A program made the translations under genes and the position numbers. From Candidatus Poseidoniaceae archaeon (GTDB lineage Archaea > Thermoplasmatota > Poseidoniia > Poseidoniales > Poseidoniaceae): a DNA stretch of 32,000 nucleotides. The stretch is from NCBI GenBank assembly GCA_943789275.1, contig CALSTM010000001.1, positions 480,001-512,000 on the forward strand, written 5' to 3'. The notes under the pieces were generated by a model. It did not search any database. It was given only the letters and a program-made list of their open reading frames with translations, and was not told the DNA's origin. Of this stretch, positions 8,752 through 29,714 are shown one piece after another (positions within the stretch are counted from its first letter, which is position 1; each line of letters opens with the position of its first letter).

Positions 8752-11033
8752 TCCTCTTCATCCCCATGGAAATCTGCAAGGGTAACTTTAATCCATTTTG
8801 ACGTAGGCGTATTGGAGTCTTTTGCTGTGGAACGAAGTGGTACCAAGATATTGGCTTCGGGGAAGTAAGTTGCGATGTTCTTACGCGGAATTTCATAGGC
8901 GACCAATTGCCACCCATCAGCCGTTCTTGTCTCACCTTCAAAATGGCTGGTAATGGAGACCATTTGGCGGTTTTTCCATCCACGCTCAGCCATGTCCAAA
9001 GCGTTCATCAAAACAATTCGTCGATTCCCGCTGACGCCTCTGTAACGGTCATGAACATCGTAAATTGTGGTGTTGTATTGGTCGTGAGACCGTATTGTCA
9101 TCATGATGAATTGCTCATCATCGATGCGGACATCAGGTAAGTCGTGAGTTGTGAAATGGGCGCGTCCCGATGGCGTGTCAAATGTTCGTGAGTCACGGGG
9201 TGGATTCGGTAACAAGAATCCGTTTTCGAGGCGCACACGCTTGTTGTAGTCTTCAAAACCAGAAAGCGATTTTTCCATTAAATTCCGAATCATGTCATAG
9301 TCTTCGACCATTCCGCTCCAATCAATGGGTGAATTGGTGAAGAGGTGTTGTGAAAGTTGAGCTACGATCCAAGGCTCGCTCCTTAAGTGACTTGACGCAG
9401 GAGGGAGTGATCCGGTCGACCTGTGGACGATTCCCATGGAGTTTTCCACGGAGACGAATTGAGGCCCAGTGCCTTGAACATCCAGTTCGGTGCGGCCCAA
9501 ACACGGTAGTATCAATGCCTTCTTACCGGTCACCAAATGCGAGCGATTGAGTTTGGTGGAGACTTGAACTGTTAAGCCAACCTTACGCAAACCTTCAGCT
9601 GTCGCCATCGTATCTGGTGTAGCAGAAATGAAGTTCCCCCCCATGCAAAAAAAGACGTCGACAGCGCCGTCTCTCATGGCTTGTATTGCGCCCACGACAT
9701 CATAGCCATGTTCACGAGGAATAGAGATGTTGAGTCCCTTTTCCATCCGTTCAATAAACGAAACCGGTGCTGCTTCCCAGATTCCAACGGTTCGGTCACC
9801 TTGAACATTGGAATGCCCGCGAACGGGACAGAACCCTGCCCCAGGCCGACCCACATGACCGCCCATCAAGAGGAGGTTTACGACTTCCTGTATGACTGCA
9901 ACTCCATTTGGCTGCTGTGTAAGACCCATCGCCCAGCATGCAATCGTTGCTTTTGAACGGGCTACAACTTGGCCTACTTCGGAAATAAGTTCACGTGGAA
10001 GGCCTGAATCTCGAACGATGGCATTCCAATCTGTATCGCGAGCTTTTTCCAGCATTGAGTCGAAACCTCCAGTCTGATTTGCGATAAATTTTGAATCAAG
10101 ATGACCCAGTTCATCGTGAATCTTGATGAGGCCTTTGAGTAAAGCAGCATCTCCACCGATTTTAACCGGCAAGTGGAAATCCGAAAGTTGAGTGGATGAA
10201 AGATTCATCTTCATATAATCTTGAGGGTGTTTGAAGCGCTCTAATCCTGCTTCAGGGAGTGGATTGACATGGATGAGAGTAGCGCCCTTTAACTTCGCAT
10301 CCCTTAGTGCAGTGAGCATACGAGGATGATTGGTGCCGGGGTTCTGGCCAATGACGAGAATGACGTCTGCATGATTGAAATCATCGAGATGCACAGTTCC
10401 TTTGCCAATGCCAATTGTTGCACCTAGGCCTTTACCACTTGATTCATGGCACATGTTCGAGCAATCGGGTAAGTTGTTGGTTCCGATGCTTCGCACCATG
10501 GCCTGGTAGAGAAAGGCAGCTTCATTGCTGGTTCGCCCAGATGTGTAGAACACTGAGCGGTTCGGATTCTCAAGTTTGTTCACCTCTCCTGCAATCATTG
10601 AAAAAGCATCATCCCATGTGATCGGAACATAATGAGAACTCCCTTCTTCAAGCACCATCGGATGAGTGATCCTACCTTGCTTGTTGAGCCAGCGGTCACT
10701 TTGCATAGAGAGATATTGAATACTGTGCTTCGAAAAAAACTCTGGGGTCACGCGACGCTTCGTCGCCTCATCAGCAACCGCTTTAGCGCCGTTTTCACAG
10801 AACTCGAACTGTGTTCTGTGCGATGGGTCAGGCCATGCACAACCCGGACAATCAAAACCCTCTTGTTGATTGACCATGGTCAATGTCTTGACGGTGCGAG
10901 AAATGCCCATGTTTTGGAGACCATGCTTGAGGGATGAAGTTACGGCTGGAATTCCGGCTGCCATTTTCTTCTTTTTCTTGATTTTAAGCGGAAGAGTGTC
11001 CGGCGGGGTTTCGGCTCGTGCGTGTTCCCTCAA
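8748..11033 (-). CDS. Molybdopterin oxidoreductase, YdeP / FdhF-like 'oxidoreductase alpha (molybdopterin) subunit' family
   Basis: 'EGFDCPGCAWPDP' N-terminal Fe-S motif characteristic of YdeP-type enzymes. 'CSNMCHESSG' contains the Mo-ligand Cys. Length is ~760 aa. Start is uncertain: the track start 11033 is TTG, and the first ATG is at 10964 ('MAAGIPAV'). Confidence 0.9.
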   Translation of the reverse strand: MREHARAETPPDTLPLKIKKKKKMAAGIPAVTSSLKHGLQNMGISRTVKTLTMVNQQEGFDCPGCAWPDPSHRTQFEFCENGAKAVADEATKRRVTPEFFSKHSIQYLSMQSDRWLNKQGRITHPMVLEEGSSHYVPITWDDAFSMIAGEVNKLENPNRSVFYTSGRTSNEAAFLYQAMVRSIGTNNLPDCSNMCHESSGKGLGATIGIGKGTVHLDDFNHADVILVIGQNPGTNHPRMLTALRDAKLKGATLIHVNPLPEAGLERFKHPQDYMKMNLSSTQLSDFHLPVKIGGDAALLKGLIKIHDELGHLDSKFIANQTGGFDSMLEKARDTDWNAIVRDSGLPRELISEVGQVVARSKATIACWAMGLTQQPNGVAVIQEVVNLLLMGGHVGRPGAGFCPVRGHSNVQGDRTVGIWEAAPVSFIERMEKGLNISIPREHGYDVVGAIQAMRDGAVDVFFCMGGNFISATPDTMATAEGLRKVGLTVQVSTKLNRSHLVTGKKALILPCLGRTELDVQGTGPQFVSVENSMGIVHRSTGSLPPASSHLRSEPWIVAQLSQHLFTNSPIDWSGMVEDYDMIRNLMEKSLSGFEDYNKRVRLENGFLLPNPPRDSRTFDTPSGRAHFTTHDLPDVRIDDEQFIMMTIRSHDQYNTTIYDVHDRYRGVSGNRRIVLMNALDMAERGWKNRQMVSITSHFEGETRTADGWQLVAYEIPRKNIATYFPEANILVPLRSTAKDSNTPTSKWIKVTLADFHGDEEE

Positions 11034-14320: not shown

Positions 14321-15367
14321 ATGGAATCCATCATTGAGTGCGTACCGAATATATCTGAAGGGAGAGATCTCGAGAAGATCGAACGCATCACATCGTCGAT
14401 TCGACATATATCTGGTTGTGCAGTATTGGGGATAGAACCGGATGCAGATTACAACCGGACAGTCATTACAATTGCAGGAAATCCAGAATCCGTCGAAAGG
14501 GCGGCATTCACACTTCTTCAAAAGGCAATAGAAGAAATCGACATGACAACACATGAAGGTGAGCATCCCCGCCTCGGGGCTGTCGATGTCTGCCCATTTG
14601 TGCCGTTACGTGGCGTGTCGATGGAAGAATGTTCGAACATAGCAAAGCGACTTGCAGTACAGGTTGCCGAAGAATGCTCGGTACCAACATTCCTCTACGG
14701 ATATGCTGCACTCCATGAGGACAAAACATTACTTTCAGCCATTCGAAAAGGACAGTATGAAGGATTGGAATCGCGGCTCTCGAACGGTGACACAGAACAT
14801 CATGAATCAACAAGGTTGCCCGATTTTGGACCAAGTCAATGGAACGACAAAGTTGCCCGTTCAGGTGGGATTACCATCGGTTCCCGCGATATCCTGGTCG
14901 CCTACAACGTTAACATCGATGAAAAGGATGCACTTGTTTCCAAAAAGATAGGTTCGTTGGTTCGCAGTTCCGGGCGACTCATCAAACAAAAGGACGGCAG
15001 AAGAATGCGCGTACCGGGTATGTTGACTTTGGTTCAAGGCATGGGAGTCACACTCGAATCACATGGCATCAGTCAGGTGTCAATGAACCTCCGAGATGTA
15101 CGCCAATGTCCTATGCATGTGGCCTATGAAGCATGTAAAACCTTGGCCGAAGATCATGGACTTCAGGCACCCGGCAGTGAATTGGTCGGTTTAGTACCAC
15201 TCGAAGCAATGCTTGATTCAGGCCGTTGGTATGCACTCGAAGGCGAAACTGATGAGGAAATATTGGTTGCGGCAGCCATCAATGGCTTGGGTTTGAGTCA
15301 ACTTGAAGAATTCGTTCCCACCGAGCGTATCATTGAGTGGGCAGTATCGAAGGCGGTGGAACAATGA
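14321..15367 (+). CDS. Glutamate formimidoyltransferase (FT domain of FTCD)
   Basis: The N-terminal 'IECVPNISEGRD' signature and 'HPRLGAVDVCPFVP' are both typical of formiminotransferase. Length ~350 aa covers both FT subdomains. Confidence 0.9.
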   Translation: MESIIECVPNISEGRDLEKIERITSSIRHISGCAVLGIEPDADYNRTVITIAGNPESVERAAFTLLQKAIEEIDMTTHEGEHPRLGAVDVCPFVPLRGVSMEECSNIAKRLAVQVAEECSVPTFLYGYAALHEDKTLLSAIRKGQYEGLESRLSNGDTEHHESTRLPDFGPSQWNDKVARSGGITIGSRDILVAYNVNIDEKDALVSKKIGSLVRSSGRLIKQKDGRRMRVPGMLTLVQGMGVTLESHGISQVSMNLRDVRQCPMHVAYEACKTLAEDHGLQAPGSELVGLVPLEAMLDSGRWYALEGETDEEILVAAAINGLGLSQLEEFVPTERIIEWAVSKAVEQ

Positions 15368-15993
15368 AATGGATGGACATGAGCCTTCAACAGTTCCAAG
15401 ATGCACTCGCTTCCAATGACCCCACTCCCGGAGGTGGTACTGCTGCTGCGGTAGCACTGGGCCAAGCATCTGCATTGACTCGGATGGTTGTTCAACTTAC
15501 GCTTGGAAAAGAGAAGTGGCAAGAGGGTTGGAAAGCGGCTGAGGCGGCTGAAATTGTGATTGGAAATGTGTATCAACGTGCTGGCGAATTGGCACAACTG
15601 GATAGCGATGCCTTTGATGGAGTTATGAATGCGTTTCGAATGTCGAAAACTTCTGATGAGGAGATAAAGAGGCGTAAAGAGAGCATTCGTTCGAACACCC
15701 TCAATGCAGCCAAAGTACCCTATGAAACTGTACTTTTAGGAATGGAATTGTTGTCGTGCCAAGCAGCACTGGCCAAACACGGTAATGCCAATGCAGTTTC
15801 TGATATCGGCGTCGCTTCCTTATTGGCAAGCGCGGCGGTAAAAGGTGCACTTTTCAATGTCGAGATAAACCTTCAATCCTTGCCGGCAGACATGGGTGTG
15901 GAAATGCGTGAGCAGTGTTCACACATCCGTTCCAAATGCAGCGAAGTGTCACGAGAAATCATGCACGCCGTACATGATCGAATGTCGGCGTAA
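15364..15993 (+). CDS. Formimidoyltetrahydrofolate cyclodeaminase (CD domain of FTCD)
   Basis: 'LASNDPTPGGGTAAAVALG' signature and an all-helical ~200 aa protein. ATG 15364 overlaps the FT stop (ATGA), so I prefer it over the track start at 15337. Confidence 0.85.
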   Translation: MKWMDMSLQQFQDALASNDPTPGGGTAAAVALGQASALTRMVVQLTLGKEKWQEGWKAAEAAEIVIGNVYQRAGELAQLDSDAFDGVMNAFRMSKTSDEEIKRRKESIRSNTLNAAKVPYETVLLGMELLSCQAALAKHGNANAVSDIGVASLLASAAVKGALFNVEINLQSLPADMGVEMREQCSHIRSKCSEVSREIMHAVHDRMSA

Positions 15994-20478: not shown

Positions 20479-21408
20479 TCATTTTGATTTTTTATCCGTC
20501 TTCGAATCTGCTTTCGATCCAGAATCTCCACTGGCATCGTCGACTTTTACTTCATCCGTTTCGATATTTTCAGCAAGTGTTGCTTTTTCCAGTTCAGCTT
20601 CCTTTGCCTTATCTTCACGCTTGAGTTTCTTCTCGGCTTGGCGCTGGGAATATCGGTCACCGTAACTACCCATGCTCTCAAGTTTAGCAATAAATGCAGA
20701 AGTTTCTTCACCAGCAACAGGAACGTGCTTTACCAGGTATGCGCCGAAAAGAGAATCATACAATCCTTGCTTGAGATCGCTGCGACTCTTGAAGGAAGTA
20801 TTCACGAAATATACTGCAATGAATGCAATACCGAGGAAGGAAAATACGGATGCAGTAATTTGCTCAGAACCCTTCGTGCCTAAAACAGACTGCAAATTGA
20901 CAAGCAAGAATATGACGCCAGTTAAAGCAAATATGCCTGTTGAGTTTACCAATAATGCGTGGAGGAAAATTGGTTTATTACCTGAAGAATTGACATTTTT
21001 CGTACGGGATACAAAGTTTCCAAGGGTTCTACCCGACATCACTGGCACGACTACCAAGTTGAGAATCAGTGCGATAAGGGCGATAAGAGCAAAAATCGTC
21101 GTGAAAGCATCGAGAATTGTCACTGAGAAAAGGAACATGAAAATAGGTCCCAAATTAACAACGAAGTTGGTAAACCATGCAATTCGGCGCGCGTTTGCAG
21201 ATGCAATTTCAAAGTTTTCTGGCAATCCTTGCGGTCGTGCTTTTACTGCCTTCGCAACAACAGGTTCTGCGATTTGAACTGGAGCGGGTGATGCTGCCTT
21301 TGCTTTGGGCACTGCCTTGGCGACTGCCTTTGCTTTTGGGACTGCTTTCGCAACTGGCTTCTTAGCCGCCTTTGATCCAACATCGCTTGCCTTGTCGAGT
21401 AATCCCAT
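20479..21408 (-). CDS. RDD-like polytopic membrane protein with N-terminal Lys/Ala/Pro-rich (histone-H1-like) tail and C-terminal Lys/Glu-rich tail
   Basis: N-terminus 'KAAKKPVAKAVPKAKAVAKAVPKAKAASPAP'. The core has 'ARRIAWFTNFVVN', 'SGRTLGNFVSRTK' and 'LYDSLFGAYLV', placed like the R/D/D landmarks of RDD-family proteins (weak, by eye). Four hydrophobic segments. ATG lies 12 nt after the upstream stop, with a GGAAGTGGA motif. Confidence 0.65.
   Translation of the reverse strand: MGLLDKASDVGSKAAKKPVAKAVPKAKAVAKAVPKAKAASPAPVQIAEPVVAKAVKARPQGLPENFEIASANARRIAWFTNFVVNLGPIFMFLFSVTILDAFTTIFALIALIALILNLVVVPVMSGRTLGNFVSRTKNVNSSGNKPIFLHALLVNSTGIFALTGVIFLLVNLQSVLGTKGSEQITASVFSFLGIAFIAVYFVNTSFKSRSDLKQGLYDSLFGAYLVKHVPVAGEETSAFIAKLESMGSYGDRYSQRQAEKKLKREDKAKEAELEKATLAENIETDEVKVDDASGDSGSKADSKTDKKSK
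21296..21355. repeat. Tandem 2 x 30-nt intragenic repeat encoding VAKAVPKAKA x2
   Basis: gcctttgctttgggcactgccttggcgact (21296-21325) versus gcctttgcttttgggactgctttcgcaact (21326-21355), read directly. It lies in the AKP tail of the 20479..21408 gene. Confidence 0.8.
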
Positions 21409-21420
21409 TCTTCCACTTCC

Positions 21421-22383
21421 TTACTGTCCATCACCGCTGCCCGGTTGATAGAGGGTTGCTACTGAACTGTAGACTTGAAATCCAGGTGATGCAACAAATG
21501 AGTTGATAGAATCTTCATCCATATTCCCAAGTTGAGCATCAACAATCGATACGAATTGTGAACGAAGACCGTCATCTGCAGCACTCGGGTTTTCACCAAC
21601 TTGTTGATAGATAGAGAAATCCGCACTCGCAATGAAGTCTGAAACAATGTCTTCTGGAAGGGCAGAACCGAGTAAATCATCGACAATCGATACGAATTCA
21701 ATGAAAACATCTTCGCCAGAGTCTTCGGCCACTGCAGCTTCTTGAACTTCAGTTGTTGAAGAATCTCCATCGTGAAGCATGGCCTTGATCGATTTACGTT
21801 CATTCATGAGACTTTCAAGAATTGGTCGAAGTTGTGAAAGTACCGCAGAGTCGCCCGATGCTTTAGCAGCCTGATATTCGGGTCGAAGTGTGCGGATTTC
21901 GTCTTCAATTGCTGAAAGTTGTGTTTGAAGGTCACCATCGTCTTCTTCAAGAAGTTGTACAACTGGAGCATCGCGTATCTCCGAGAGTTTTGCTTCACGG
22001 TCCTTCTTCCGCAACACAACGATTTCACGGTCTAGAGAATGGCCAAAACGGTCAGCATATCGGTCCAACAGTGAACCCGTATCTTTCTTGCTCAATCGGT
22101 CGATGTGACCGTAGATTTGTTGGAGTGGTTTGTCAGAGCGTTTTGCCCACATTTCGCCGTACTCGTTTGAAGCGACTGGTGCAGGAGACGGTGCCTCAGG
22201 CAAGGGCATAGGAGCAGCGGGGAGTGGTGCAGGTGCCGGTGCCTCAGGAAGAGGCAGTGGAGTTGGTGCGTCCGGAAGCGGTAGAGCTCCAGGCGGAAGC
22301 GGCATGCCCGGTAGCGGTGGAAGTGGCATACCCGGTGCTGGAGGGTTCTGAGCGTTCTTTTTCTTGCCTTTGCGTAGACCCAT
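21421..22383 (-). CDS. Hypothetical protein: basic N-terminus, ~56-aa proline-rich tract, coiled-coil region, twin ~33-aa C-terminal repeats
   Basis: 'PPAPGMPLPPLPGMPLPPGALPLPDAPTPLPLPEAPAPAPLPAAPMPLPEAPSPAP' is about half Pro. The heptad-like region 'LQTQLSAIEDEIRTLRPEYQAAK' follows. Repeats 'FVSIVDDLLGSALPEDIVSDFIASADFSIYQQV' and 'FVSIVDAQLGNMDEDSINSFVASPGFQVYSSV' have a 16-nt identical DNA core at 21542-21557 and 21683-21698. ATG 22383 is preferred over the GTG at 22392. Confidence 0.65.
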   Translation of the reverse strand: MGLRKGKKKNAQNPPAPGMPLPPLPGMPLPPGALPLPDAPTPLPLPEAPAPAPLPAAPMPLPEAPSPAPVASNEYGEMWAKRSDKPLQQIYGHIDRLSKKDTGSLLDRYADRFGHSLDREIVVLRKKDREAKLSEIRDAPVVQLLEEDDGDLQTQLSAIEDEIRTLRPEYQAAKASGDSAVLSQLRPILESLMNERKSIKAMLHDGDSSTTEVQEAAVAEDSGEDVFIEFVSIVDDLLGSALPEDIVSDFIASADFSIYQQVGENPSAADDGLRSQFVSIVDAQLGNMDEDSINSFVASPGFQVYSSVATLYQPGSGDGQ

Positions 22384-22478
22384 GCGGTTCACCTCTAAAC
22401 GGTTGGAAGCGGATGGAGTCTTGAACCTTACCTCTTAATCTGCACAAGATAACCAAAGTTCAAACCTCTCTGAAGCCG

Positions 22479-23693
22479 TCAAGATACAATTTCTGCCCAA
22501 CCTTTCAAAACGAGGAAAGTCGCACCCGCTTCATGGATCTCAAAACGCTCACCCGTCTGTTTGTCAAAGACTTGATCACCAAACTGGCAAATTGAATCAT
22601 CGACGATCATTTCCACTTCAAGCATGTCTTGGGTGCTGAGTGCAAGCGCTTCATGCAATGCAGAATATCGATTTGAACCATCGGGGTCGAGACGCTCAAG
22701 AGGAAACTCACTTACCCGCATTCCAGATTTCCCATGAAGCGAAGTAGGCCAACGAATTTGCCGTCGTACGTCAATCGTAACCACTTCATCGGTTTCACCT
22801 GCAGAACCTAAAACCACTGACGCATCAGTTTTCAATAAATCCAGAAAGAGTCCCTCGTATTTTTCGAGAACTCCAAAACTGCCGTTGCGTAGTCGTTCAG
22901 CCCGAGCATCATGATTAACGACCTGTGCCAAACTCTGAATTGAACCCTTACCTTTGGTAGAAGTACGGCCTTCTCGTTGAGATTGCGAGAGAAGACCCTG
23001 GTGAAGCGATTCAAGTTCTCCACTGAATCCTTGGTCTTTGCGAGCAATCATACGCAGTTTGTCAATCATATCTCCCATACCGTTGCGTATCCTTCTGGTC
23101 CAACCTTCTGAAGTCAAGTCGTGGTAACGAGCTAATCCTCCCTTGACATCCACGCCTTCGCCGCGTATGTACGAAACCATTTCTCTACGCGCTTCGGAAT
23201 CAAGGTGGAAGAGCGAAGGGTCTCGATAGTGCAGGTGGAAACCACGATGGCCAGAAAAAGTAACTTGGAGGTATTTTTCATCAAAGCCAAATTCAGGTTG
23301 CAAAAAATCATTCCATAAGGACCAAGCTTGTTCTTGAATGACTTGAATCATGCCGGGGAAATCACGGTCTGTTACACCAGGTAAGTGGTCACCGTCCAAA
23401 TCAAAAATAAGGTCGGCGCCGAGCCAATTTTTGTCAGACATTTTCATTTCAAACGGCCGTTCCCAGTAAGCGGTTGAATAGAAACATGAATGCATTGAAC
23501 GTTCTGTGATGAATTGGCGGACTGCATTCATGTCACTGAATCCCTTATGCCGAATGGGAGGTGAACCACCGAAAGGAATGAACATCCATTCACGGGTCTT
23601 CAAACGAGGAGGTGTCCAAAATTCTGAACTTCGATAGTAGGTACCGAAGCGATGTGCAAATCGTGCCCAACCTGCTGCCATAGAATACCCCAT
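22479..23693 (-). CDS. priS: DNA primase small (catalytic) subunit PriS
   Basis: AEP-superfamily motifs: 'LIFDLDGDH' (DxD), 'FSGHRGFHLHY' (sGxRGxHxH), and a later 'IDVRRQIRWPTSLHGKSG'. 404 aa. Confidence 0.9.
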   Translation of the reverse strand: MGYSMAAGWARFAHRFGTYYRSSEFWTPPRLKTREWMFIPFGGSPPIRHKGFSDMNAVRQFITERSMHSCFYSTAYWERPFEMKMSDKNWLGADLIFDLDGDHLPGVTDRDFPGMIQVIQEQAWSLWNDFLQPEFGFDEKYLQVTFSGHRGFHLHYRDPSLFHLDSEARREMVSYIRGEGVDVKGGLARYHDLTSEGWTRRIRNGMGDMIDKLRMIARKDQGFSGELESLHQGLLSQSQREGRTSTKGKGSIQSLAQVVNHDARAERLRNGSFGVLEKYEGLFLDLLKTDASVVLGSAGETDEVVTIDVRRQIRWPTSLHGKSGMRVSEFPLERLDPDGSNRYSALHEALALSTQDMLEVEMIVDDSICQFGDQVFDKQTGERFEIHEAGATFLVLKGWAEIVS

Positions 23694-23730
23694 TAATGGC
23701 GAAAGGGTGAGGGTTATTGAACAAGCCGAA

Positions 23731-23937
23731 TCATTCGGTCATCCAGAATCGTTCTTCGGCTTCACCGACTGTTGTCGAAGTATCTGCACCTGTTGCTTCA
23801 ACGTAATGGTCCCAGCACATGTAGTACTTACCGACAACCATTGCGTTACCGAAAGTGAGGCGCATTCCACATGATTCACATCGAGGTCCGATTTCGCCGT
23901 TTGGCGCTTGGGCGAGTGTGATGTGGTCGTGTGGCAT
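23731..23937 (-). CDS. Small putative zinc-binding protein (68 aa)
   Basis: 'CESCG-x19-CWDH' forms a CxxC...CxxH pattern. ATG 23937 is preceded by GAGGG 6 nt upstream. It fills the gap between the DOHH-like gene and priS. No family recognised. Confidence 0.4.
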   Translation of the reverse strand: MPHDHITLAQAPNGEIGPRCESCGMRLTFGNAMVVGKYYMCWDHYVEATGADTSTTVGEAEERFWMTE

Positions 23938-23994
23938 AGAATCCCTCTGTTTCACCGGAAGAGCATTGAGTCTTTGAACTTGAGGTTCATTTCA

Positions 23995-24489
23995 TCACCA
24001 TTCTGCATTTTCCCATTCGCTGGTCGAACACCAGTTCAGTAAATCAATAGCTACTTCACAGGATTCTGCAACTTCCGGATTTTCATCGTGAAGAAATTCT
24101 TCAAGCACCGGTTTTGCTTTGAGATTCCCGATTGCTCCGAGTGCTTCAGCTGCCTCATGGCGGACCATTATGTGCTCACCAGCGTCACTTAGTCGCTCAA
24201 TCAAAGCAGGCAAAGCAGTATCGTTTTGCATTTGACCCAAGACGTAGGCTAATTCGTGGCGCAGAAGGGCGCTGGATGCTGAGAAGCCAGAACAAAGAGC
24301 CAAACATGCCTCATCTGAACCAAGATTGCGCAGTGAAAATACACTTCTCATACGCTGAAACATAGGAAGTGATTCATCACACAAAGTAGCAGCCCATGAA
24401 GTGACATCACCTTTGAATTCTGCAGGAGCGGGATCAACTGAACCGTATTGGCTCACACCGGGCATCCGCTTTTCGACGGTCATGTCCAT
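23995..24489 (-). CDS. HEAT-repeat protein resembling one half of deoxyhypusine hydroxylase (4 HEAT repeats, 2 His-Glu motifs)
   Basis: 'FQRMRSVFSLRNLG', 'SALLRHELAYVLGQMQNDTALPALI', 'IMVRHEAAEALGAIG', 'PEVAESCEVAIDLL'. These are near-identical to the human DOHH half-repeat motifs as I recall them. ATG 24489 shares one base with the upstream gene's stop (TGATG). Confidence 0.8.
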   Translation of the reverse strand: MDMTVEKRMPGVSQYGSVDPAPAEFKGDVTSWAATLCDESLPMFQRMRSVFSLRNLGSDEACLALCSGFSASSALLRHELAYVLGQMQNDTALPALIERLSDAGEHIMVRHEAAEALGAIGNLKAKPVLEEFLHDENPEVAESCEVAIDLLNWCSTSEWENAEW

Positions 24490-25373
24490 CACTCATTCGA
24501 TCCGATAAAAGCCATACTGGCGGTGTCAAAATCATCCTGAATCATTCCGATGGCTTGACCTTCGTTGATGAATTGACGCACGGAAGCACGACCTTCCTTT
24601 TCATAATCGATGGTTCGGTCATTCACATACATTCCAACGAATTTCCGGTTGGTATCGTCGTCAATCCCCCGACCCCATTTTTTGGCAAACTCAAGTGCTT
24701 CACCAGGAGACTTAAGAGCAAACTCAATGCTCATTTTTGTGTACTTGGTGATGTCCTCCATCACCTCTTGGCCTAGATCACGTCGCACGACGTTACCGCC
24801 CAAGGGCATTGGCCAACCGTCTGTGCGCTCATTCCACCAAACACCGAGGTCAACATGGACCTGGAGATTATGATCAACATAGGTTAATTGCCCCTCGTGT
24901 ATGATAAGTCCGCTCTTGTAGGTTCCGTCGAGAACTCTCGGTATGATTTCGTCAAACGGTACAACCGCAATATCGCAATCGCCCCAAGCAAGACGGAGAC
25001 CAAGATATGCACTGGTTTTCAACCCAGGGACTGCAATGGTTGACGAACGAACTTCTTCCGTTGATGTATCTGCTAGGGAGACGACCATTGGACCGTACCC
25101 TTCACCCATAGAAGCACCACAGTTCATGAGTGCATAATCCTTCGAAATTTCGGGAAAGGCATGAATCGAAACTGCCGAGACTTCCAATTCACAGTTCATT
25201 GCCCGATGGTTGAGTGTTTCAATGTCTTGCAATTCATGAACGAAATTATAGCCCGGTGTTGGAAAGGCACCGGTTGTCATGGCGTGAAACATAAAGGCGT
25301 CATCAGGATCTGGAGAATGGCCAATGCGTACTATCTTGTTTCCGTTTTCGTCGAGAGGTAACTCTGCCATCAT
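24489..25373 (-). CDS. MqnA/MqnD family (PF02621-type) protein, MqnD-like (1,4-dihydroxy-6-naphthoate synthase candidate)
   Basis: 'RIGHSPDPDDAFMFHAM' at the N-terminus and 'GLIIHEGQLTY' (the HE-type motif I associate with MqnD rather than MqnA). Start is probably ATG 25373 ('MMAELPL'), preceded by GGTGGGAG; the track start 25412 is also an ATG. Confidence 0.7.
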   Translation of the reverse strand: MMAELPLDENGNKIVRIGHSPDPDDAFMFHAMTTGAFPTPGYNFVHELQDIETLNHRAMNCELEVSAVSIHAFPEISKDYALMNCGASMGEGYGPMVVSLADTSTEEVRSSTIAVPGLKTSAYLGLRLAWGDCDIAVVPFDEIIPRVLDGTYKSGLIIHEGQLTYVDHNLQVHVDLGVWWNERTDGWPMPLGGNVVRRDLGQEVMEDITKYTKMSIEFALKSPGEALEFAKKWGRGIDDDTNRKFVGMYVNDRTIDYEKEGRASVRQFINEGQAIGMIQDDFDTASMAFIGSNE

Positions 25374-25436
25374 GGTGCTCCCACCGACGCGACCTTGATG
25401 AACCAACCGCATGAAATGAGAACAAAATGAAACAAC

Positions 25437-25451
25437 GAATACGAAGTATTC
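25437..25451. repeat. Perfect inverted repeat GAATAC-gaa-GTATTC in the divergent intergenic region
   Basis: Read directly. It lies ~28 nt upstream of the ATG at 25479 and ~64 nt upstream of the minus-strand ATG at 25373. It could arise by chance in an AT-rich spacer. Confidence 0.35.
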
Positions 25452-25478
25452 AAACCTTAGTGGGGATTGGAGAAACTG

Positions 25479-27692
25479 ATGGCCCTGAACTCGAGAAGGT
25501 TAAGAGTTCAGACACTGCTTTGCTTAGCAATTTTTCTTCTTAGTTCTGTTTCATCGGTTGCCGGCCAATATTCGGATATTGCCTTTATTGATGTCACCAT
25601 CACACCAGGCGCTGAAGAATCCCGCACGGTCGATATTAACGGGAATGAAACGTATATTGCCAGCGGCTACGATGGCTTGGTTGCGGTTCATTCTCTTGCA
25701 ACTCTTGAAATGGTCGAATCATTTGTTGTTGATGGCGATGTCCTTGACATCAAATTTTCACCCGATGGTTCAATGCTTGCATTTGCCATGTCCGGCTCGG
25801 TCACGGACTCCGACACCATTCAGATCATCGACATGGAATCACTCGCCTTGACCTCGAAACAAAGCGGTTCGAATTCTCGTTCGGAGAGCATACAATGGTC
25901 TCCTGACGGCCATCTTTTAGCCGTCCCAAATTCGAACAATGGAGTGAATTTGTTGAGAACATCGGACATGGAAATCGAGCGAACTCTGAATGGCGAACAC
26001 AACACGAAGGTGACATGCATCGATTTTTCATCGCTTGGGAGTTATATTTTGACGGGTGATGAAAGCGGACGTGTCATCATGTGGTCCCTTGATGGAAACC
26101 CTACTGGTAAACAATGGGACCACGATTCTAAGGTCGTAACATGTGATTTTGATTCGAGCGATGAAAAACTAGCGGTGCTCACAGAACAAGGAGAAATGGC
26201 AATTTGGTCCTTCTCGGGCGGAGCACTTGGTGAGAAAGATTTCGAGGGTGGTGCGGGATTGCATTGGTCCGTGGACGACAAGCAAATTCACATTCTCGAA
26301 ACTGGGCAAGCTCAAAGGATACTTACGATTGATTCATCCTCCTTGGGCGATGTAGTTTCCATTTACCTTGCCCACCAAGGCATGGATTTCGATATTGTTG
26401 AGAACCAGTTTGGAACACGCCAAATGGCGTATGTAGCTACCGATACAGGCCATATTGCCGTGTATGGAGCGGCAGTTTCGGCAGTAGGTCAGGGCGAAAG
26501 TGGAGCCGACTTAGATGGCGATGAAATCCCAGATGAGTATGACGACGACGACGATGGAGATGCGATTCCAGATGCTCGAGACAACAATTGTGAAACCTTC
26601 ACTCAAGCATGCAGCAAAAACCCTGATGTAGAAACGATTCGACAAATCAACATCCGTTTCAATTCGACTGCGATGGTTCTTGAAGATACATTTACTCTCG
26701 ATATAGAACTCTCTTCTGCTGTACGCAATTTATCAAGACGTTCAATTGTGACTGATGCTCAACTGAGCGAAGAAGAGGCGGTTCTCTTTGCAGATGCGAC
26801 CTGTAAAAACATGAATCAAAATCACTACGTGGGTTCGTGGAAAGATGCCATACTCTTGTCTTCAGGACAACTTACAGATGCCCACGTTGAATGCAGCATC
26901 GACCGTGGAATGTCTTTCATCGCCATAAACGACCAAAAAACGCATGTTGCAATAACCTATTCAATACATTTCAACCTCAGTGAAACCGCTGTATATCCGC
27001 TTCAATTTACCCTGAAATCACAGCCAAGAGCTACCGACGCATCTCTAGCACATCATGCCGAATTGCATCCAATCGATGTGACGGCAGATGGTTCAGCAAC
27101 CACACAATTCTACTATTCACCGTGGTGGGTAAGTGAAGGGCCACTAACCGTCACCCTGGAAGAAGTCGACATTGAAGAACCGGATTTCGTTGGTAAAGTC
27201 GCAGATGCATTCAGCAATAATCCTGTGCTCTTTGTTCCTGTCCTCATGCTGATTGCTGCAGGAGTTGTCGTGCTCTTACGAACAAAAAATGCAATGGATC
27301 TCGAACTTGATATGGAAGATGAAGACAAAGCCGAACCGGATGAAAGCGGAGAGTTTGAGAATTCAGAAGAACATGCTGAAAACGATGTTGAAGACGACGG
27401 TGATGATGAACTGGGAGAGACAGATGACGAAGAAATTCAACCTGTTGAAGAAAAACCAGTACGAACTCGCAGAAAGTCAGTACGTCCGAACACATCCTCT
27501 GACGGCCCTATTACAACCGTCAAACGAAGGCGCCTCGACAGTAATATAGCCCAACCGAAAGAAATTTCAAAACGTAAGACGGCATCGAAGAAAAAAGTGG
27601 TCAAAGAAGCACCTGCAAAAAAGAAAGTAAAAACTCGAAGAGTCGTTACATACGCTGACAATGAAAAAGAACAACAGAATGTTGATGATTAA
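25479..27692 (+). CDS. Secreted, C-terminally membrane-anchored WD40-like beta-propeller protein with TSP3-like Asp-rich Ca2+ motif and charged cytoplasmic tail
   Basis: Signal-peptide-like 'MALNSRRLRVQTLLCLAIFLLSSVSSVAG'. WD-like blades: 'VLDIKFSPDGSMLAFA', 'IQWSPDGHLLAV', 'VTCIDFSSLGSYILTGDESGRVIMWSL', 'VVTCDFDSSDEKLAVLTEQGEMAIWSF'. Asp-rich segment 'DLDGDEIPDEYDDDDDGDAIPDARDNNC' at 26508-26591. TM helix 'VLFVPVLMLIAAGVVVLL'. The tail is acidic then Lys-rich ('KKKVVKEAPAKKKVKTRR'). Track start 25467 is TTG. Confidence 0.8.
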   Translation: MALNSRRLRVQTLLCLAIFLLSSVSSVAGQYSDIAFIDVTITPGAEESRTVDINGNETYIASGYDGLVAVHSLATLEMVESFVVDGDVLDIKFSPDGSMLAFAMSGSVTDSDTIQIIDMESLALTSKQSGSNSRSESIQWSPDGHLLAVPNSNNGVNLLRTSDMEIERTLNGEHNTKVTCIDFSSLGSYILTGDESGRVIMWSLDGNPTGKQWDHDSKVVTCDFDSSDEKLAVLTEQGEMAIWSFSGGALGEKDFEGGAGLHWSVDDKQIHILETGQAQRILTIDSSSLGDVVSIYLAHQGMDFDIVENQFGTRQMAYVATDTGHIAVYGAAVSAVGQGESGADLDGDEIPDEYDDDDDGDAIPDARDNNCETFTQACSKNPDVETIRQINIRFNSTAMVLEDTFTLDIELSSAVRNLSRRSIVTDAQLSEEEAVLFADATCKNMNQNHYVGSWKDAILLSSGQLTDAHVECSIDRGMSFIAINDQKTHVAITYSIHFNLSETAVYPLQFTLKSQPRATDASLAHHAELHPIDVTADGSATTQFYYSPWWVSEGPLTVTLEEVDIEEPDFVGKVADAFSNNPVLFVPVLMLIAAGVVVLLRTKNAMDLELDMEDEDKAEPDESGEFENSEEHAENDVEDDGDDELGETDDEEIQPVEEKPVRTRRKSVRPNTSSDGPITTVKRRRLDSNIAQPKEISKRKTASKKKVVKEAPAKKKVKTRRVVTYADNEKEQQNVDD

Positions 27693-28490
27693 TTACCAGG
27701 CGAATTGAGCCCCAGATTCAAGTCCACACGCCTTGGTGAGGAATTCGTTTAACCCAGCCAAGTTTTCTTCGTCGATACGATTGAATACTTCCCCAAAGTA
27801 TCGGTCGAGACGTTCGTAATCAAGATGGGAACGGGTCATAGCCCACTCAATGACGCTTTGCCGTTGAGCGTTACTTTGTTCAAATAAAGTCAAATTGTCC
27901 TTAAGTACTCCATGGGCTTGACGCAACGATTCAATTGGAGTGTCTTTACGTGCAGCGAAGACACCGAAAACCATCGGTTTTTGTGTAAATTGTAACCAGT
28001 CTTGCCCTAAGTCCAGCCGGACCGATTCAGGGAACTTTTTGGCCCCTTCTAAGGCGCGGTCACCGATGAGAAGGGCACCCTCACACTGGTCAAGCATTCC
28101 TTCAAGGTCAGGACCCATGAGGACAAAATCGGGATTCAAGTTTCTTTTCTTCAAAAGATACTTTAGAAGTTGAACAGATGTTGCTGAATCGGTTGGAAGA
28201 GCAATTGATTTCAGTTGGTCAAGCGGTTTGTTTCCGAACACGAGAACGCTACCTACTTCGCCACGACTGCAAATCCCGATATCGGGGAGAAGTATCAATT
28301 CATCAGCATGCCGAGCGTAATCGGCGGCAGGAATGGGTGCCAAAATACAATCCTTACGCAGCAAATGACCGGTGAGCCAAGCAGGTGGCGCAGGTAATAT
28401 GTTCCAATCTGCATCAAGGCCATAGAACAACGGGTCACAATTGAGGAAAGCAACTCTTCCCATCGTTTGCATCCATGTTGAATCTGTCAT
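27693..28490 (-). CDS. mqnA: Chorismate dehydratase MqnA (futalosine pathway)
   Basis: 'GRVAFLNCDPLFYGL', 'ILAPIPAADY', 'GALLIGDRALEG' are MqnA-type motifs of the PF02621 family. It lies 9 nt downstream of the radical SAM gene, with a GAGGAAGAGAG motif before the ATG. Confidence 0.8.
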   Translation of the reverse strand: MTDSTWMQTMGRVAFLNCDPLFYGLDADWNILPAPPAWLTGHLLRKDCILAPIPAADYARHADELILLPDIGICSRGEVGSVLVFGNKPLDQLKSIALPTDSATSVQLLKYLLKKRNLNPDFVLMGPDLEGMLDQCEGALLIGDRALEGAKKFPESVRLDLGQDWLQFTQKPMVFGVFAARKDTPIESLRQAHGVLKDNLTLFEQSNAQRQSVIEWAMTRSHLDYERLDRYFGEVFNRIDEENLAGLNEFLTKACGLESGAQFAW

Positions 28491-28499
28491 CTCTCTTCC

Positions 28500-29714
28500 T
28501 CAGGGGCTAGCCATTTTTAATCCTCTACGAGGTTTAGGCTCCGGTGGTACGAAAATTTCGAACCGTTCGTAAGTGGTGTTTCTCTGTACGGGGACACATC
28601 CAGCATCGGTGATGAGACGAGCAAGTCGAATTCGGTCGTGATCCAAAGGGGTAGTTGAACCAGCCAAATGCATTATTGATTCTTTTTGGACCGTTCCATC
28701 AATGTCATCTGCGCCGTACTGAAGTGCTAATTCGGCTAATTCATCGCCGATGTTCATCCTATACGCCTTGATATGAGGGATTGTATCAAGCATGAGGCGT
28801 GATACTGCAATCGTGCGAAGTATTTCACTTCCGGTTGCAAGTTGAGCCTCTGGAAGACGAGTGTGGTCCGGTAGGAAAGGATAAGGGACAAAACATTGGA
28901 ATCCAGAAGTGTCATCGTTTACTTCACGCAATTGAATCATGTGCATCAGTCGCTGTTCCAAGGTCTCAATGGTACCAAACAACATAGTGCAATTGGTTGG
29001 GATTCCTAACTCGTGTGCAGTACGATGAATCTCAAGATATTCAGATGAACTTTCCTTACCGTTGCAGATGATGGCGCGGACACCGTCATCGAGAATCTCA
29101 GCCCCACCGCCGGGAAGAGAACCAAGACCTGCCGCTTTGAGTTTCGCAAGCGTAACAGAAAAGGAAGTGCCCGAGAGTTGAGAGAGGTGCTTGATTTCAA
29201 CAGCAGTCAACGCCTTGATTGAGACATGGGGGAAACGCTCTCTGGAAGCTTTGAACAACTGCTCATAGTGCTTGATACCCCAGTCTGGGTGGAGACCACC
29301 AACGGAGTGAACTTCGTCAACATGTTCTGCATACTGCCCGAGATCTTCAAGGTAGGCTTCGACATCCAATGCGTAAGCATCCTTTGCTTTCTTAGAGCGG
29401 CGGAATGCGCAGAATTTGCATGCTAAAACACAAATATTTGTTTGGTTAACGTGGACGTTGGAATTAAAGAAAGCGTTGGAGCCAAAGCGGGCAGTACGGA
29501 CACAATTGGCAAGTCTGCCAACTTCAGAAAGATTCGGATGTTGGAAAAGAAGCAGACCGTCCTCTAGGTTGAGCCGCTGACCTCGGGAAATTTTGTTTGC
29601 GACGGGTCGAATGTTTTCGCTCCATGTCTTCGATTCCCCTACGAGTTCTGGTAACAGACTCTTCCAATCAGGATTGGAACCCGCATCGAGAACTGTTGAT
29701 TCCCATCCTGACAT
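28500..29714 (-). CDS. Radical SAM enzyme of the MqnE/MqnC (CofH-like) family: aminofutalosine synthase or cyclic dehypoxanthinyl-futalosine synthase
   Basis: 'NICVLACKFCAF' forms the CxxxCxxC cluster motif. 'HSVGGLHPD', 'SLPGGGAEI' and 'TNCTMLFG' are typical of this subfamily. I cannot distinguish MqnC from MqnE by eye. Confidence 0.85.
   Translation of the reverse strand: MSGWESTVLDAGSNPDWKSLLPELVGESKTWSENIRPVANKISRGQRLNLEDGLLLFQHPNLSEVGRLANCVRTARFGSNAFFNSNVHVNQTNICVLACKFCAFRRSKKAKDAYALDVEAYLEDLGQYAEHVDEVHSVGGLHPDWGIKHYEQLFKASRERFPHVSIKALTAVEIKHLSQLSGTSFSVTLAKLKAAGLGSLPGGGAEILDDGVRAIICNGKESSSEYLEIHRTAHELGIPTNCTMLFGTIETLEQRLMHMIQLREVNDDTSGFQCFVPYPFLPDHTRLPEAQLATGSEILRTIAVSRLMLDTIPHIKAYRMNIGDELAELALQYGADDIDGTVQKESIMHLAGSTTPLDHDRIRLARLITDAGCVPVQRNTTYERFEIFVPPEPKPRRGLKMASP

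What the first reader, a model, noticed from the sequence alone, without database searches (positions are those of the whole stretch)
23995..24489. Half-length deoxyhypusine hydroxylase (DOHH) homologue in an archaeon: possible pre-duplication form of the eukaryotic diiron enzyme
Eukaryotic DOHH (~300 aa) consists of two symmetric four-HEAT halves, and each half contributes two His-Glu motifs to a diiron centre. This 164-aa ORF matches one complete half almost motif for motif (human sequences quoted from memory):
- 'FQRMRSVFSLRNLG' versus human 'ARFRALFTLRGLG'.
- 'SALLRHELAYVLGQMQ' versus 'SALLKHELAYCLGQMQ'.
- 'MVRHEAAEALGAIG' versus 'MVRHEAGEALGAIG'.
- 'VAESCEVAIDLL' versus 'VRESCEVALDM'.
The two HE dipeptides (codons at 24253-24258 and 24154-24159) are 33 residues apart. 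That is the spacing I recall for H56/E57-H89/E90 and H207/E208-H240/E241 in the human enzyme. Ordinary PBS-lyase HEAT repeats share 'VRxxAAxALG' but not the HE pairs. The flanking genes are unrelated, so this is not an obviously split or truncated full-length gene. A homodimer would be needed to rebuild the four-HE site. To my knowledge no DOHH homologue is accepted for Archaea, although hypusine (not only deoxyhypusine) has been reported in some archaeal lineages. This could therefore be a candidate archaeal hydroxylase and an evolutionary intermediate.
Basis: partly seen in the sequence, partly recalled or inferred. Interest (0 to 1): 0.7.

Follow-up and report, generated by a model that had tools for sequence, protein, structure and literature searches.

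The report
Half-size archaeal deoxyhypusine hydroxylase homologue
A very abundant group of ocean archaea (Marine Group II) carries a conserved gene equal to one half of the eukaryotic iron enzyme that completes the hypusine modification of translation factor 5A; the literature says archaea lack this enzyme, so this is a testable candidate for it and for how its two-layer iron site arose.

Summary
ORF 23995-24489 (-) encodes a 164-aa, four-HEAT-repeat protein.

- **Homology:** it matches both halves of human DOHH (100 and 120 bits), against about 55 bits for generic HEAT profiles.
- **Structure:** the AF2 model (pLDDT 93) superposes on half of PDB 4D4Z at 1.2 Å.
- **Active-site residues:** both His-Glu pairs, 33 residues apart, are essentially invariant in about 235 orthologue clusters.
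- **Distribution:** orthologues occur in both families of Poseidoniales (MGIIa and MGIIb).
- **Not a fragment:** every orthologue is half-size and single-copy in all 21 loci examined. The gene always sits just downstream of mqnD and is under strong purifying selection (dN/dS about 0.02).
- **Pathway context:** a published MGII pangenome table lists deoxyhypusine synthase in 97-99% of MGII genomes.

The most likely function is a homodimeric diiron deoxyhypusine hydroxylase acting on aIF5A. This is inferred, not shown.

The "pre-duplication relic" reading is unresolved. The core is equidistant from eukaryotic N- and C-halves and has the shortest branch. The N-terminal SVDPAP cap and the C-terminal tail are C-half-like, and outgroup rooting depends on the distance correction.

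Annotation pipelines already label the protein DOHH, but no paper in the searched library discusses it.

The parts
23995..24489 (-). Half-size DOHH homologue: 164 aa, stop codon included. It consists of an N-terminal cap plus four HEAT repeats.
   Evidence: ORF and translation. Human DOHH E = 1.3e-64. AF2 pLDDT 93.3. Foldseek top hit 4D4Z, TM 0.87, rmsd 1.2 Å, 46% identity. dN/dS about 0.02.
24424..24441 (-). S17-V-D-P-A-P22 cap motif. It corresponds to the inter-domain linker motif that precedes the C-half of eukaryotic DOHH.
   Evidence: S17 and D19-P22 are invariant and V18 is at least 90% conserved in MGIIa; all six residues are invariant in 120/120 MGIIb sequences. It aligns to human 'YLSVDPAP'. 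An S.DPAP-like motif occurs in the linker of 104/134 full-length DOHHs and never at their N-terminus. pLDDT is 85-91 for residues 11-30.
24322..24405 (-). HEAT repeat 1 (residues 29-56). Its B helix carries the invariant R46, R48, F51, R54 and N55.
   Evidence: Helices 29-36 and 43-56 in the AF2 model. Invariant columns.
24229..24315 (-). HEAT repeat 2 (residues 59-87) with the first His-Glu pair, 'SALLRHELAYVLGQMQ'.
   Evidence: Helices 59-70 and 74-87. The block is nearly identical to human N-half 'SALLKHELAYCLGQMQ'.
24253..24258 (-). H78-E79. These are equivalent to human H56-E57 and H207-E208.
   Evidence: H78 and E79 are present in 114/114 MGIIa sequences. In MGIIb, H is present in 119/120 and E in 120/120. 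Coordinates.
24130..24222 (-). HEAT repeat 3 (residues 90-120) with the second His-Glu pair, 'MVRHEAAEALGAIG'.
   Evidence: Helices 90-101 and 107-120. Invariant columns.
24154..24159 (-). H111-E112. These are equivalent to the human iron ligands H89-E90 and H240-E241.
   Evidence: In MGIIa, H111 is present in 113/114 and E112 in 114/114. In MGIIb both are present in 120/120. Ligand list from PMC3306375.
24028..24123 (-). HEAT repeat 4 (residues 123-154), 'PEVAESCEVAIDLL', followed by a short C-terminal tail.
   Evidence: Helices 123-131 and 138-154. E142, S143, C144 and D149 are invariant. S143 is the C-half state, where N-halves have T.
24489..25412 (-). mqnD (1,4-dihydroxy-6-naphthoate synthase), the upstream gene. 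Its stop codon overlaps the start codon of the DOHH-half gene (TGATG), so the two are probably one transcription unit.
   Evidence: Pfam VitK2_biosynth 213 bits. PDB TTHA1568/MqnD 160 bits and AF1704 230 bits. Junction sequence. The pair is conserved in 17 species-representative loci, all named Poseidoniaceae, Poseidonia or more broadly, and in 4 MGIIb loci with a 2-nt gap despite inversion of the neighbours.

Best explanation
The ORF encodes a genuine member of the deoxyhypusine hydroxylase lineage. It consists of a single four-HEAT 'layer' plus its N-terminal SVDPAP cap, which is one half of the eukaryotic enzyme. It is a core, vertically inherited gene of the archaeal order Poseidoniales (Marine Group II).

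The most likely mechanism is as follows.
1. Two identical subunits pack concave face to concave face, as the N- and C-halves do in human DOHH.
2. Each subunit gives His78, His111 and Glu112 to one iron, so the dimer holds a diiron centre.
3. The centre binds O2 and hydroxylates the deoxyhypusine side chain that deoxyhypusine synthase has put on the conserved lysine of aIF5A. Glu79 of each subunit helps to hold the substrate's amino groups.

Shown here: the homology, the fold of the subunit, conservation of all ligand residues, the half-size architecture throughout the order, purifying selection, and co-occurrence with DHS.

Inferred: dimerisation, iron binding, O2 chemistry and the identity of the substrate.

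The evolutionary position is at or near the node where the two eukaryotic halves diverged. The data do not resolve whether it lies before the duplication or on the early C-half lineage.
For: - **DOHH-specific similarity.** Human DOHH gives E = 1.3e-64, with both halves hit. Identity is 48% to the human C-half and 46% to the N-half, whereas those halves are 41% identical to each other. DOHH half-profiles score 151-156 bits against generic HEAT at about 55 bits.
- **Fold.** AF2 pLDDT is 93.3. Foldseek to 4D4Z gives TM 0.87 and rmsd 1.2 Å; the next hits are artificial alphaRep proteins at TM 0.66.
- **Ligand residues.** H78, E79, H111 and E112 are invariant or nearly so in 114 MGIIa and 120 MGIIb cluster representatives. 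G85, R46, R48, E142 and C144 are also invariant. The human iron ligands are H56, H89, E90, H207, H240 and E241 (PMC3306375). Each arm of the dyad is proposed to form one Fe site (PMC8153317).
- **Not a fragment.** All 230+ orthologue clusters are 153-196 aa, on contigs up to 1.68 Mb. There is one copy per locus in 21 loci. dN/dS is 0.023.
- **Pathway context.** DHPS is present in 153/158 MGIIa and 91/92 MGIIb MAGs. A single 'DOHH' gene cluster is present in 119/158 and 72/92, and is listed as MGII core (Tully 2019 Supplementary Data 10).
- **Oxygen.** MGII genomes encode cytochrome c oxidase (same table), so the cells are aerobic and O2 is available.
Against: - No experiment or multimer model supports the homodimer.
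- aIF5A of MGII was not retrieved, and it is not listed in the Tully core table.
- The gene is never next to DHS or aIF5A. In both MGII families it is tightly coupled to mqnD, a menaquinone biosynthesis gene.
- The defining eight-repeat single-chain architecture of DOHH is not met.
- No hypusine measurement exists for MGII, which is uncultured.
Confidence: 0.6

Rival explanations
1. The enzyme and mechanism are the same, but the gene is not a pre-duplication relic. It descends from the C-terminal half (linker cap included) of an already duplicated eukaryotic or stem-eukaryotic DOHH, was transferred to the ancestor of Poseidoniales, and was re-adapted to work as a homodimer.
For: - The S.DPAP cap occurs in the linker before the C-half in 104/134 full-length DOHHs and never at the N-terminus.
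- The C-terminal tail and S143/V146 are C-half states.
- With the termini included, the MGII profile matches C-halves 5-65 bits better than N-halves in the ten examples printed.
- Four-point analysis with a HEAT outgroup favours (C,MGII) in 96% of bootstraps with p-distance, 91% with Poisson and 61% with Kimura.
- The family was seen only in one archaeal order, while the gene is universal in eukaryotes.
Against: - On the shared core, MGII scores the N-half profile as well as real N-halves do (149.6 against 146.6 bits). Its N-minus-C score difference is -3, against -34 for real C-halves, none of which is above -11.6.
- MGII has the shortest branch to the three-way centre (0.33, against 0.53 for C and 0.66 for N). 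The (C,MGII) signal vanishes under gamma-corrected distances, as expected if it is attraction between the long N and outgroup branches.
- No eukaryotic lineage stands out as a donor. The best full-length hits are 41-53% identical and taxonomically scattered: Catenaria, Pythium, Geosiphon and protist transcriptomes.
Confidence: 0.35
2. It is an iron-dependent oxygenase built on the DOHH scaffold that acts on another substrate, for example a step connected with futalosine/menaquinone (quinone) metabolism, because it forms a two-gene unit with mqnD.
For: - The gene pair of mqnD followed by the DOHH-half gene overlaps or is separated by at most about 18 nt in 17 species-representative loci (all named Poseidoniaceae, Poseidonia or more broadly) and by 2 nt in 4 MGIIb loci.
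- The pair survives a rearrangement that puts PriS and mqnA-mqnE on the other strand.
- mqnA, mqnD and an mqnE-like radical SAM gene surround it.
- No DHS or aIF5A lies in the 32-kb window.
Against: - From my own knowledge, unverified here: no hydroxylation step is known in the futalosine pathway.
- 46-48% identity to human DOHH, with every ligand residue and the residues adjoining the HE motifs conserved, argues for a conserved substrate.
- This genome is compact and overlapping neighbours are common. For example, 3860-5407 overlaps 5404-7449, and 7489-8751 overlaps 8748-11033. Coupling alone is therefore weak evidence.
- DHS is near-universal in the same genomes.
Confidence: 0.15
3. It works as a heteromer with a second, unrecognised HEAT protein, or as a monomer with a mononuclear 2-His-1-carboxylate iron site, rather than as a homodimer.
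For: H78, H111 and E112 on one subunit form a 2-His-1-carboxylate set by themselves. The homodimer has not been modelled or measured.
Against: - No second half-size paralogue was found in 21 loci.
- The MGII pangenome has a single DOHH gene cluster.
- The 50%-identity representative search showed only one half-size cluster among the top 150.
Confidence: 0.08
4. It is a gene fragment or pseudogene, or a generic non-catalytic PBS-lyase-type HEAT protein.
For: NCBI annotates orthologues only as 'HEAT repeat domain-containing protein' or 'PBS lyase'. Pfam has only generic HEAT models that match it.
Against: - It is order-wide and always half-size, with intact ORFs under dN/dS of about 0.02.
- The HE pairs are invariant, and they are absent from generic HEAT units.
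- The score against DOHH is two- to three-fold higher than against generic HEAT profiles.
Confidence: 0.02

Closest known systems
Eukaryotic deoxyhypusine hydroxylase (DOHH/Lia1/nero; EC 1.14.99.29; KEGG K06072; PDB 4D4Z)
   Same: - Identity to either half of the human enzyme is 46-48%.
- The four-HEAT layer fold is the same (rmsd 1.2 Å).
- The two His-Glu motifs sit 33 residues apart in the B helices of repeats 2 and 3.
- The SVDPAP cap that precedes the C-half is the same.
- The inner-helix residues are conserved in the same way.
   Different: - It has half the length: 164 aa and four repeats, against about 300 aa and eight repeats in one chain.
- The six-ligand diiron site can therefore only form between two chains.
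- It is found in an archaeon and is operon-coupled to mqnD.
- Its core is equidistant from both eukaryotic halves rather than belonging to either.
PBS-lyase-type HEAT repeat proteins (Pfam PF03130 HEAT_PBS and PF13646 HEAT_2; CpcE/NblB; E. coli YibA; artificial alphaRep proteins)
   Same: The repeat type and the 'VRxxAAxALGxIG' B-helix consensus are shared. Scores pass the Pfam gathering thresholds (56 and 55 bits). Structural TM is about 0.65.
   Different: These proteins have no His-Glu pairs at the ligand positions and no SVDPAP cap. Scores are much lower: NblB 27 bits against a cutoff of 300. They are non-catalytic or lyase adaptors, not oxygenases.
Enzymes whose single-chain pseudo-symmetric form has homodimeric half-size relatives. 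The example of retroviral versus pepsin-type aspartic proteases is from my own knowledge, not tested here.
   Same: The active site is built on a two-fold axis from two equivalent half-sites, and a half-size protein would supply it by homodimerisation.
   Different: This is an analogy only, with no sequence or fold relationship. For the DOHH half, the dimer is not yet demonstrated.

Membership tests
Deoxyhypusine hydroxylase (EC 1.14.99.29, K06072) | Sequence similarity specific to DOHH rather than to generic HEAT repeats | tested here: met
   Human DOHH gives E = 1.3e-64, at 100 and 120 bits per half. N- and C-half profiles built here score 151 and 156 bits on 116 core residues. By comparison, HEAT_PBS scores 56, HEAT_2 scores 55 and NblB scores 27 bits. 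IMG and KEGG pipelines assign K06072.
Deoxyhypusine hydroxylase (EC 1.14.99.29, K06072) | Strictly conserved His-Glu motifs in repeats 2 and 3 of each four-HEAT unit, 33 residues apart. The iron ligands are H56/H89/E90 and H207/H240/E241. | tested here: met
   H78-E79 and H111-E112 are 33 residues apart. They are conserved in 113-114 of 114 MGIIa and 119-120 of 120 MGIIb sequences. Ligand list from PMC3306375. One chain supplies only one of the two ligand triads.
Deoxyhypusine hydroxylase (EC 1.14.99.29, K06072) | Eight HEAT repeats arranged as a symmetric dyad within one polypeptide | tested here: not met
   The protein has four repeats in 164 aa. All orthologue clusters are 153-196 aa. There is no second half in the flanks of 21 loci. 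It is therefore a variant architecture, not a canonical member.
Deoxyhypusine hydroxylase (EC 1.14.99.29, K06072) | Three-dimensional fold of a DOHH half-domain | tested here: met
   AF2 gives pLDDT 93.3 and pTM 0.87. The Foldseek top hits are 4D4Z chains A and B, with TM 0.85-0.87, rmsd 1.2 Å and 145-148 aligned columns.
Deoxyhypusine hydroxylase (EC 1.14.99.29, K06072) | Substrate-binding residues Glu57/Glu208 and Gly63/Gly214 (recalled from the mutagenesis literature, not verified in the held library) | tested here: met
   The equivalents, E79 and G85, are invariant in all MGII sequences. The assignment of their role rests on my own recollection.
Deoxyhypusine hydroxylase (EC 1.14.99.29, K06072) | Two layers of repeats sandwich a diiron centre (here this requires a homodimer) | not testable with these tools
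   Only monomer AF2 was available, and no multimer prediction or coordinates could be used. The sandwich architecture is described in PMC9040561.
Deoxyhypusine hydroxylase (EC 1.14.99.29, K06072) | Fe- and O2-dependent hydroxylation of deoxyhypusine on (a/e)IF5A | not testable with these tools
   This needs biochemistry or proteomics.
Deoxyhypusine hydroxylase (EC 1.14.99.29, K06072) | Co-occurrence with deoxyhypusine synthase | tested here: met
   Tully 2019 Supplementary Data 10, 'MGII Core' sheet: DHPS is present in 153/158 MGIIa and 91/92 MGIIb genomes.
Deoxyhypusine hydroxylase (EC 1.14.99.29, K06072) | Presence of the substrate aIF5A with the modifiable lysine in the same genomes | not tested
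   aIF5A is not in the window and is not listed in the Tully core table. The literature states that all archaeal genomes encode aIF5A (PMC6105217).
PBS-lyase HEAT-like repeat superfamily (PF03130/PF13646) | Scores above the Pfam gathering thresholds | tested here: met
   HEAT_PBS scores 56.2 bits against a cutoff of 20.9. HEAT_2 scores 54.6 bits against a cutoff of 27.7. This is superfamily-level membership only.
Futalosine (mqn) menaquinone pathway component | Homology to a known Mqn enzyme, or a pathway step that requires an oxygenase | tested here: not met
   There is no similarity to any Mqn family. Only gene adjacency to mqnD is seen. That the pathway has no known hydroxylation step is from my own knowledge.

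The most novel reading that the evidence does not exclude
The MGII protein is a living representative of the homodimeric, single-layer ancestor of DOHH, from before the internal duplication that produced the eukaryotic eight-HEAT enzyme. If so, the oxidase arose as a symmetric dimer of a four-HEAT binder, and hypusine hydroxylation in eukaryotes traces to, or was exchanged with, an aerobic archaeal lineage before LECA.
Probability: 0.35. Interest if true: 0.85.

Novelty: new variant of a known kind. Interest (0 to 1): 0.62.

Why it matters
- **An open question in the hypusine field.** For about 20 years the literature has stated that archaea have DHS but no DOHH homologue, although some archaea contain hypusine. 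This family shows that one very abundant archaeal order does carry a DOHH-lineage gene as a core gene. Whether archaeal aIF5A can be hydroxylated by a DOHH-type enzyme therefore becomes directly testable. It does not explain hypusine in Crenarchaeota.

- **The origin of the enzyme.** DOHH is cited as a rare case of an O2-activating enzyme that arose from a non-enzymatic repeat scaffold, with the site sandwiched between two repeat layers (PMC9040561). A free-standing single layer that keeps all ligands is the natural experimental model for how such a site emerges by dimerisation and is later fixed by duplication and fusion. It is also a minimal, symmetric scaffold for diiron-peroxo chemistry.

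- **A note on annotation.** KEGG and IMG have labelled these proteins DOHH, and a 2019 pangenome table lists them as MGII core. NCBI calls them generic HEAT proteins, and no paper in the searched library discusses them.

Tried and rejected
- **GTDB genome scan with the single protein.** The patterns were too specific.
- **Exhaustive 50%-representative search and two 90%-cluster searches.** The listed hits were saturated by two-domain eukaryotic DOHHs or by MGII orthologues. Half-size families in other prokaryotes below about 170 bits could not be seen.
- **AlphaFold-DB fold search**, which would have given organism names, was unavailable.
- **Viral contigs:** no relative found.
- **NJ trees with bootstrap:** N, C and MGII monophyly were poorly supported (20-63%) because of short alignments and rogue sequences.
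- **Four-point outgroup analysis:** the result depends on the distance correction.
- **Parsimony on N/C-discriminating columns:** only 2-3 usable columns, with no polarity.
- **The 74-aa downstream ORF as a rubredoxin-like redox partner: rejected.** Its CxxC is not conserved in MGIIb, and it stays with PriS, not with the DOHH-half gene, after the rearrangement.
- **Split or frameshifted full-length gene: rejected.** The upstream ORF is mqnD with an overlapping stop and start, and tblastn finds one DOHH-like stretch per locus.
- **Literature gaps.** Park et al. 2006 (PMC1324997) is not held. The Rinke 2019 supplements hold no relevant entries.
- **Homodimer modelling** was not attempted because only monomer prediction on unmodified sequences is offered.
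Full report
**1. Observation.** The minus-strand ORF 23995..24489 encodes 164 aa. The two His-Glu dipeptides are at the stated codons (24253-24258 and 24154-24159), 33 residues apart. The window is archaeal. Neighbouring genes include the primase small subunit, a PAN-type proteasomal ATPase, methionyl-tRNA synthetase and futalosine-pathway genes. The closest database proteins are from Candidatus Poseidoniaceae, that is Marine Group IIa.

**2. A specific DOHH relative, not a generic HEAT protein.**
- phmmer against all PDB sequences puts human DOHH (4D4Z) first at E = 1.3e-64. The query aligns separately to the N-half (100.4 bits) and to the C-half (119.8 bits). The C-half match includes the inter-domain linker motif YLSVDPAP.
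- BLASTP identity is 48% to the human C-half and 46% to the N-half, whereas those two halves are 41% identical to each other.
- Pfam offers only generic models (HEAT_PBS 56 bits, HEAT_2 55 bits). NCBIfam's best hit is NblB at 27 bits against a cutoff of 300.
- Profiles that I built from 107 eukaryotic N-halves and 107 C-halves score the query at 151 and 156 bits on 116 core residues.
- Sixteen generic four-repeat HEAT_PBS units taken from giant repeat proteins lack His-Glu at the ligand columns.
- An AlphaFold2 model built on 66 orthologues is confident (pLDDT 93.3, pTM 0.87). It shows four helical hairpins plus an ordered N-terminal cap.
- Foldseek against the PDB returns 4D4Z first (TM 0.87, rmsd 1.2 Å, 46% identity over 148 columns). 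Artificial alphaRep proteins follow at TM about 0.65.

**3. A conserved, always half-size, core gene of an archaeal order.**
- The first homologue search returned 113 half-size clusters (153-177 aa, 63-99% identical). They come from Poseidoniaceae genomes and marine metagenomes, on contigs up to 1.68 Mb. Seven full-length eukaryotic DOHHs of about 285 aa appeared at 46-53% identity.
- A read-everything search of 1.84 billion 50%-identity representatives found 437 proteins with E <= 1e-30. The top 150 are almost all two-stretch proteins of about 300 aa. The only other half-size entry is P0236 (159 aa, 58% identical).
- P0236 heads a second large clade of 159-aa proteins, named in NCBI records as Candidatus Thalassarchaeaceae, that is MGIIb.
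- His78, Glu79, His111 and Glu112, the SVDPAP motif and most inner-helix residues are invariant or nearly so in 114 MGIIa and 120 MGIIb sequences.
- Against the nearest relative, dN/dS is 0.023. In more distant pairs synonymous sites are saturated while pN stays at 0.05-0.30.
- In 17 species-representative genomes the order is mqnE-like, mqnA, (WD40 gene in some), mqnD, DOHH-half, 74-aa ORF, PriS. Each locus has exactly one DOHH-like stretch.
- In four MGIIb contigs the neighbours are rearranged, but mqnD followed by DOHH-half remains a unit with a 2-nt gap.
- In the window the mqnD stop codon overlaps the DOHH-half start codon.
- The gene is therefore neither split, truncated nor a pseudogene. 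It was most probably present in the common ancestor of Poseidoniales.

**4. Pathway context.**
- The window holds no DHS or aIF5A.
- Supplementary Data 10 ('MGII Core') of Tully 2019 (PMC6336850) lists deoxyhypusine synthase in 153/158 MGIIa and 91/92 MGIIb genomes. It lists a single KEGG-labelled 'DOHH; deoxyhypusine monooxygenase' gene cluster in 119/158 and 72/92.
- The main text of that paper never mentions hypusine or DOHH.
- aIF5A is not in that table, so I did not confirm it. The literature holds that every archaeal genome encodes it.

**5. Mechanism.**
- In eukaryotic DOHH the iron ligands are H56, H89 and E90 in the N-half and H207, H240 and E241 in the C-half (PMC3306375).
- Each arm is proposed to form one Fe site, and the two cooperate to give the binuclear centre (PMC8153317). 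The centre lies sandwiched between the two repeat layers (PMC9040561).
- The MGII protein carries exactly one such triad (H78, H111, E112) plus the second glutamate (E79).
- The simplest working model is a face-to-face homodimer that rebuilds the diiron site and hydroxylates deoxyhypusine on aIF5A.
- The subunit fold and the ligands are shown here. Dimerisation, metal binding, O2 chemistry and the substrate are inferred. I give this model 0.6.
- The main functional rival (0.15) is an oxygenase with a different substrate, suggested by the persistent coupling to mqnD. Against it, no futalosine step is known to need hydroxylation (my own knowledge), gene overlaps are common in this compact genome, and similarity to DOHH is very high.

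**6. Pre-duplication relic or not.**
- Evidence for a position at or near the duplication node:
  - On the shared core, MGII proteins score the N-half profile as well as true N-halves do (149.6 against 146.6 bits) and the C-half profile nearly as well as true C-halves (152.8 against 164.1 bits).
  - Their N-minus-C score difference is -3.2 (range -7.8 to +4.0), against +27 for N-halves and -34 for C-halves.
  - Mean identity is 0.44 for MGII to N and 0.48 for MGII to C, against 0.39 for N to C. MGII is also closest to the generic HEAT outgroup (0.32 against 0.29 and 0.30).
  - MGII has the shortest branch to the three-way centre (0.33 against 0.53 and 0.66).
- Evidence for descent from the C-half:
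  - The S.DPAP cap is found in the linker of 104/134 full-length DOHHs and never at their N-terminus.
  - The C-terminal tail and positions 143 and 146 are C-like.
  - Four-point analysis with the outgroup prefers (C,MGII) in 96%, 91% and 61% of bootstraps under p-distance, Poisson and Kimura distances.
  - That preference falls to 23% under a strong gamma correction, where (N,C)|(MGII,outgroup) reaches 46%. This pattern is typical of long-branch attraction between the N-halves and the outgroup.
- NJ bootstraps are uninformative.
- No eukaryotic group stands out as a donor, which argues against a recent transfer from a crown eukaryote.
- I conclude that the lineage split from the eukaryotic halves at or close to the duplication. 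The order of the two events is unresolved: about 0.35 for a true pre-duplication form, about 0.35 for early C-half descent, and the remainder undecided.

**7. Comparison with what is known, and novelty.**
- The family passes every DOHH criterion I could test except the defining eight-repeat single-chain architecture. It is therefore best filed as a new architectural variant, a half-size and presumably homodimeric form of a known enzyme kind.
- Reviews and primary papers from 2012 to 2021 state that no DOHH orthologue exists in archaea.
- Searches of 8 million full texts for DOHH together with Marine Group II, Poseidoniales, Thermoplasmatota or Asgard found no paper that discusses an archaeal DOHH.
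- The gene has nonetheless been machine-labelled as DOHH by KEGG and IMG, so the finding is overlooked rather than invisible.
- It does not account for hypusine in Sulfolobus and other Crenarchaeota, where it was chemically detected.

**8. Limits.**
- No multimer modelling was possible.
- Trees were distance-based, on 116 columns.
- The role assigned to E57/E208 and G63/G214 in substrate binding is from my own memory.

Noticed in passing
window 23731-23955 (-); L018 8855-9052 (-): A 74-aa ORF with no Pfam or NCBIfam family lies between the DOHH-half gene and PriS. It is conserved in all 17 species-representative Poseidoniales loci and is homologous (35% identity, E = 1e-12) to a 65-aa ORF in MGIIb. 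After the MGIIa/MGIIb rearrangement it stays directly upstream of PriS, so it may be a primase-associated small protein. Its CxxC is not conserved.
   Followed up: partly
window 25467-27692 (+): A 741-aa WD40 beta-propeller protein has a signal-like N-terminus, a C-terminal transmembrane segment and an acidic/lysine-rich tail. It is inserted between mqnA and mqnD only in the window's subclade (L001-L009). It is absent from L010-L017 and from MGIIb. It evolves fast (51-84% identity where the neighbours are 88-97%).
   Followed up: partly
L018-L021 7645-12486 compared with window 22479-29714: Between MGIIa and MGIIb the two-gene unit mqnD plus DOHH-half is inverted relative to PriS and the small ORF, and relative to mqnA and mqnE. 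The rest of the neighbourhood (MetRS, CNNM, PAN, Tsr3-like) remains syntenic.
   Followed up: partly
window 1029-2897 (-): A 622-aa protein with several EF-hand calcium-binding motifs (EF-hand_1 68.6 bits, EF-hand_7 65 bits), which is unusual in an archaeon.
   Followed up: no
window 3860-7449 (-) and 14321-15993 (+): Histidine-utilisation genes are present: histidine ammonia-lyase-type (Lyase_aromatic, 556 bits), urocanase, glutamate formimidoyltransferase FtcD and a methenyl-THF cyclohydrolase FchA-like gene. They are split into two blocks by unrelated genes.
   Followed up: no
window 20479-21408 (-) and 21421-22392 (-): Two conserved MGII proteins have no family hit. One has a Lys/Ala-rich N-terminal repeat region and membrane segments. 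The other has a proline-rich 'PLP' repeat N-terminus. The second is conserved at 46-88% identity across the 16 loci that extend that far.
   Followed up: no
window 28500-29714 (-): The radical SAM gene next to mqnA scores best as MqnE (413 bits) but falls below the NCBIfam equivalog cutoff (434.55 bits). It also scores 331 bits as MqnC. Its exact assignment within the futalosine pathway is therefore open.
   Followed up: no
Tully 2019 (PMC6336850) Supplementary Data 10, not in the window: The 'MGII Core' table carries other eukaryote-flavoured KEGG labels (APC6/CDC16, DHX57, ADARB). These are automated labels that may hide further overlooked eukaryote-like genes or may be misannotations.
   Followed up: no
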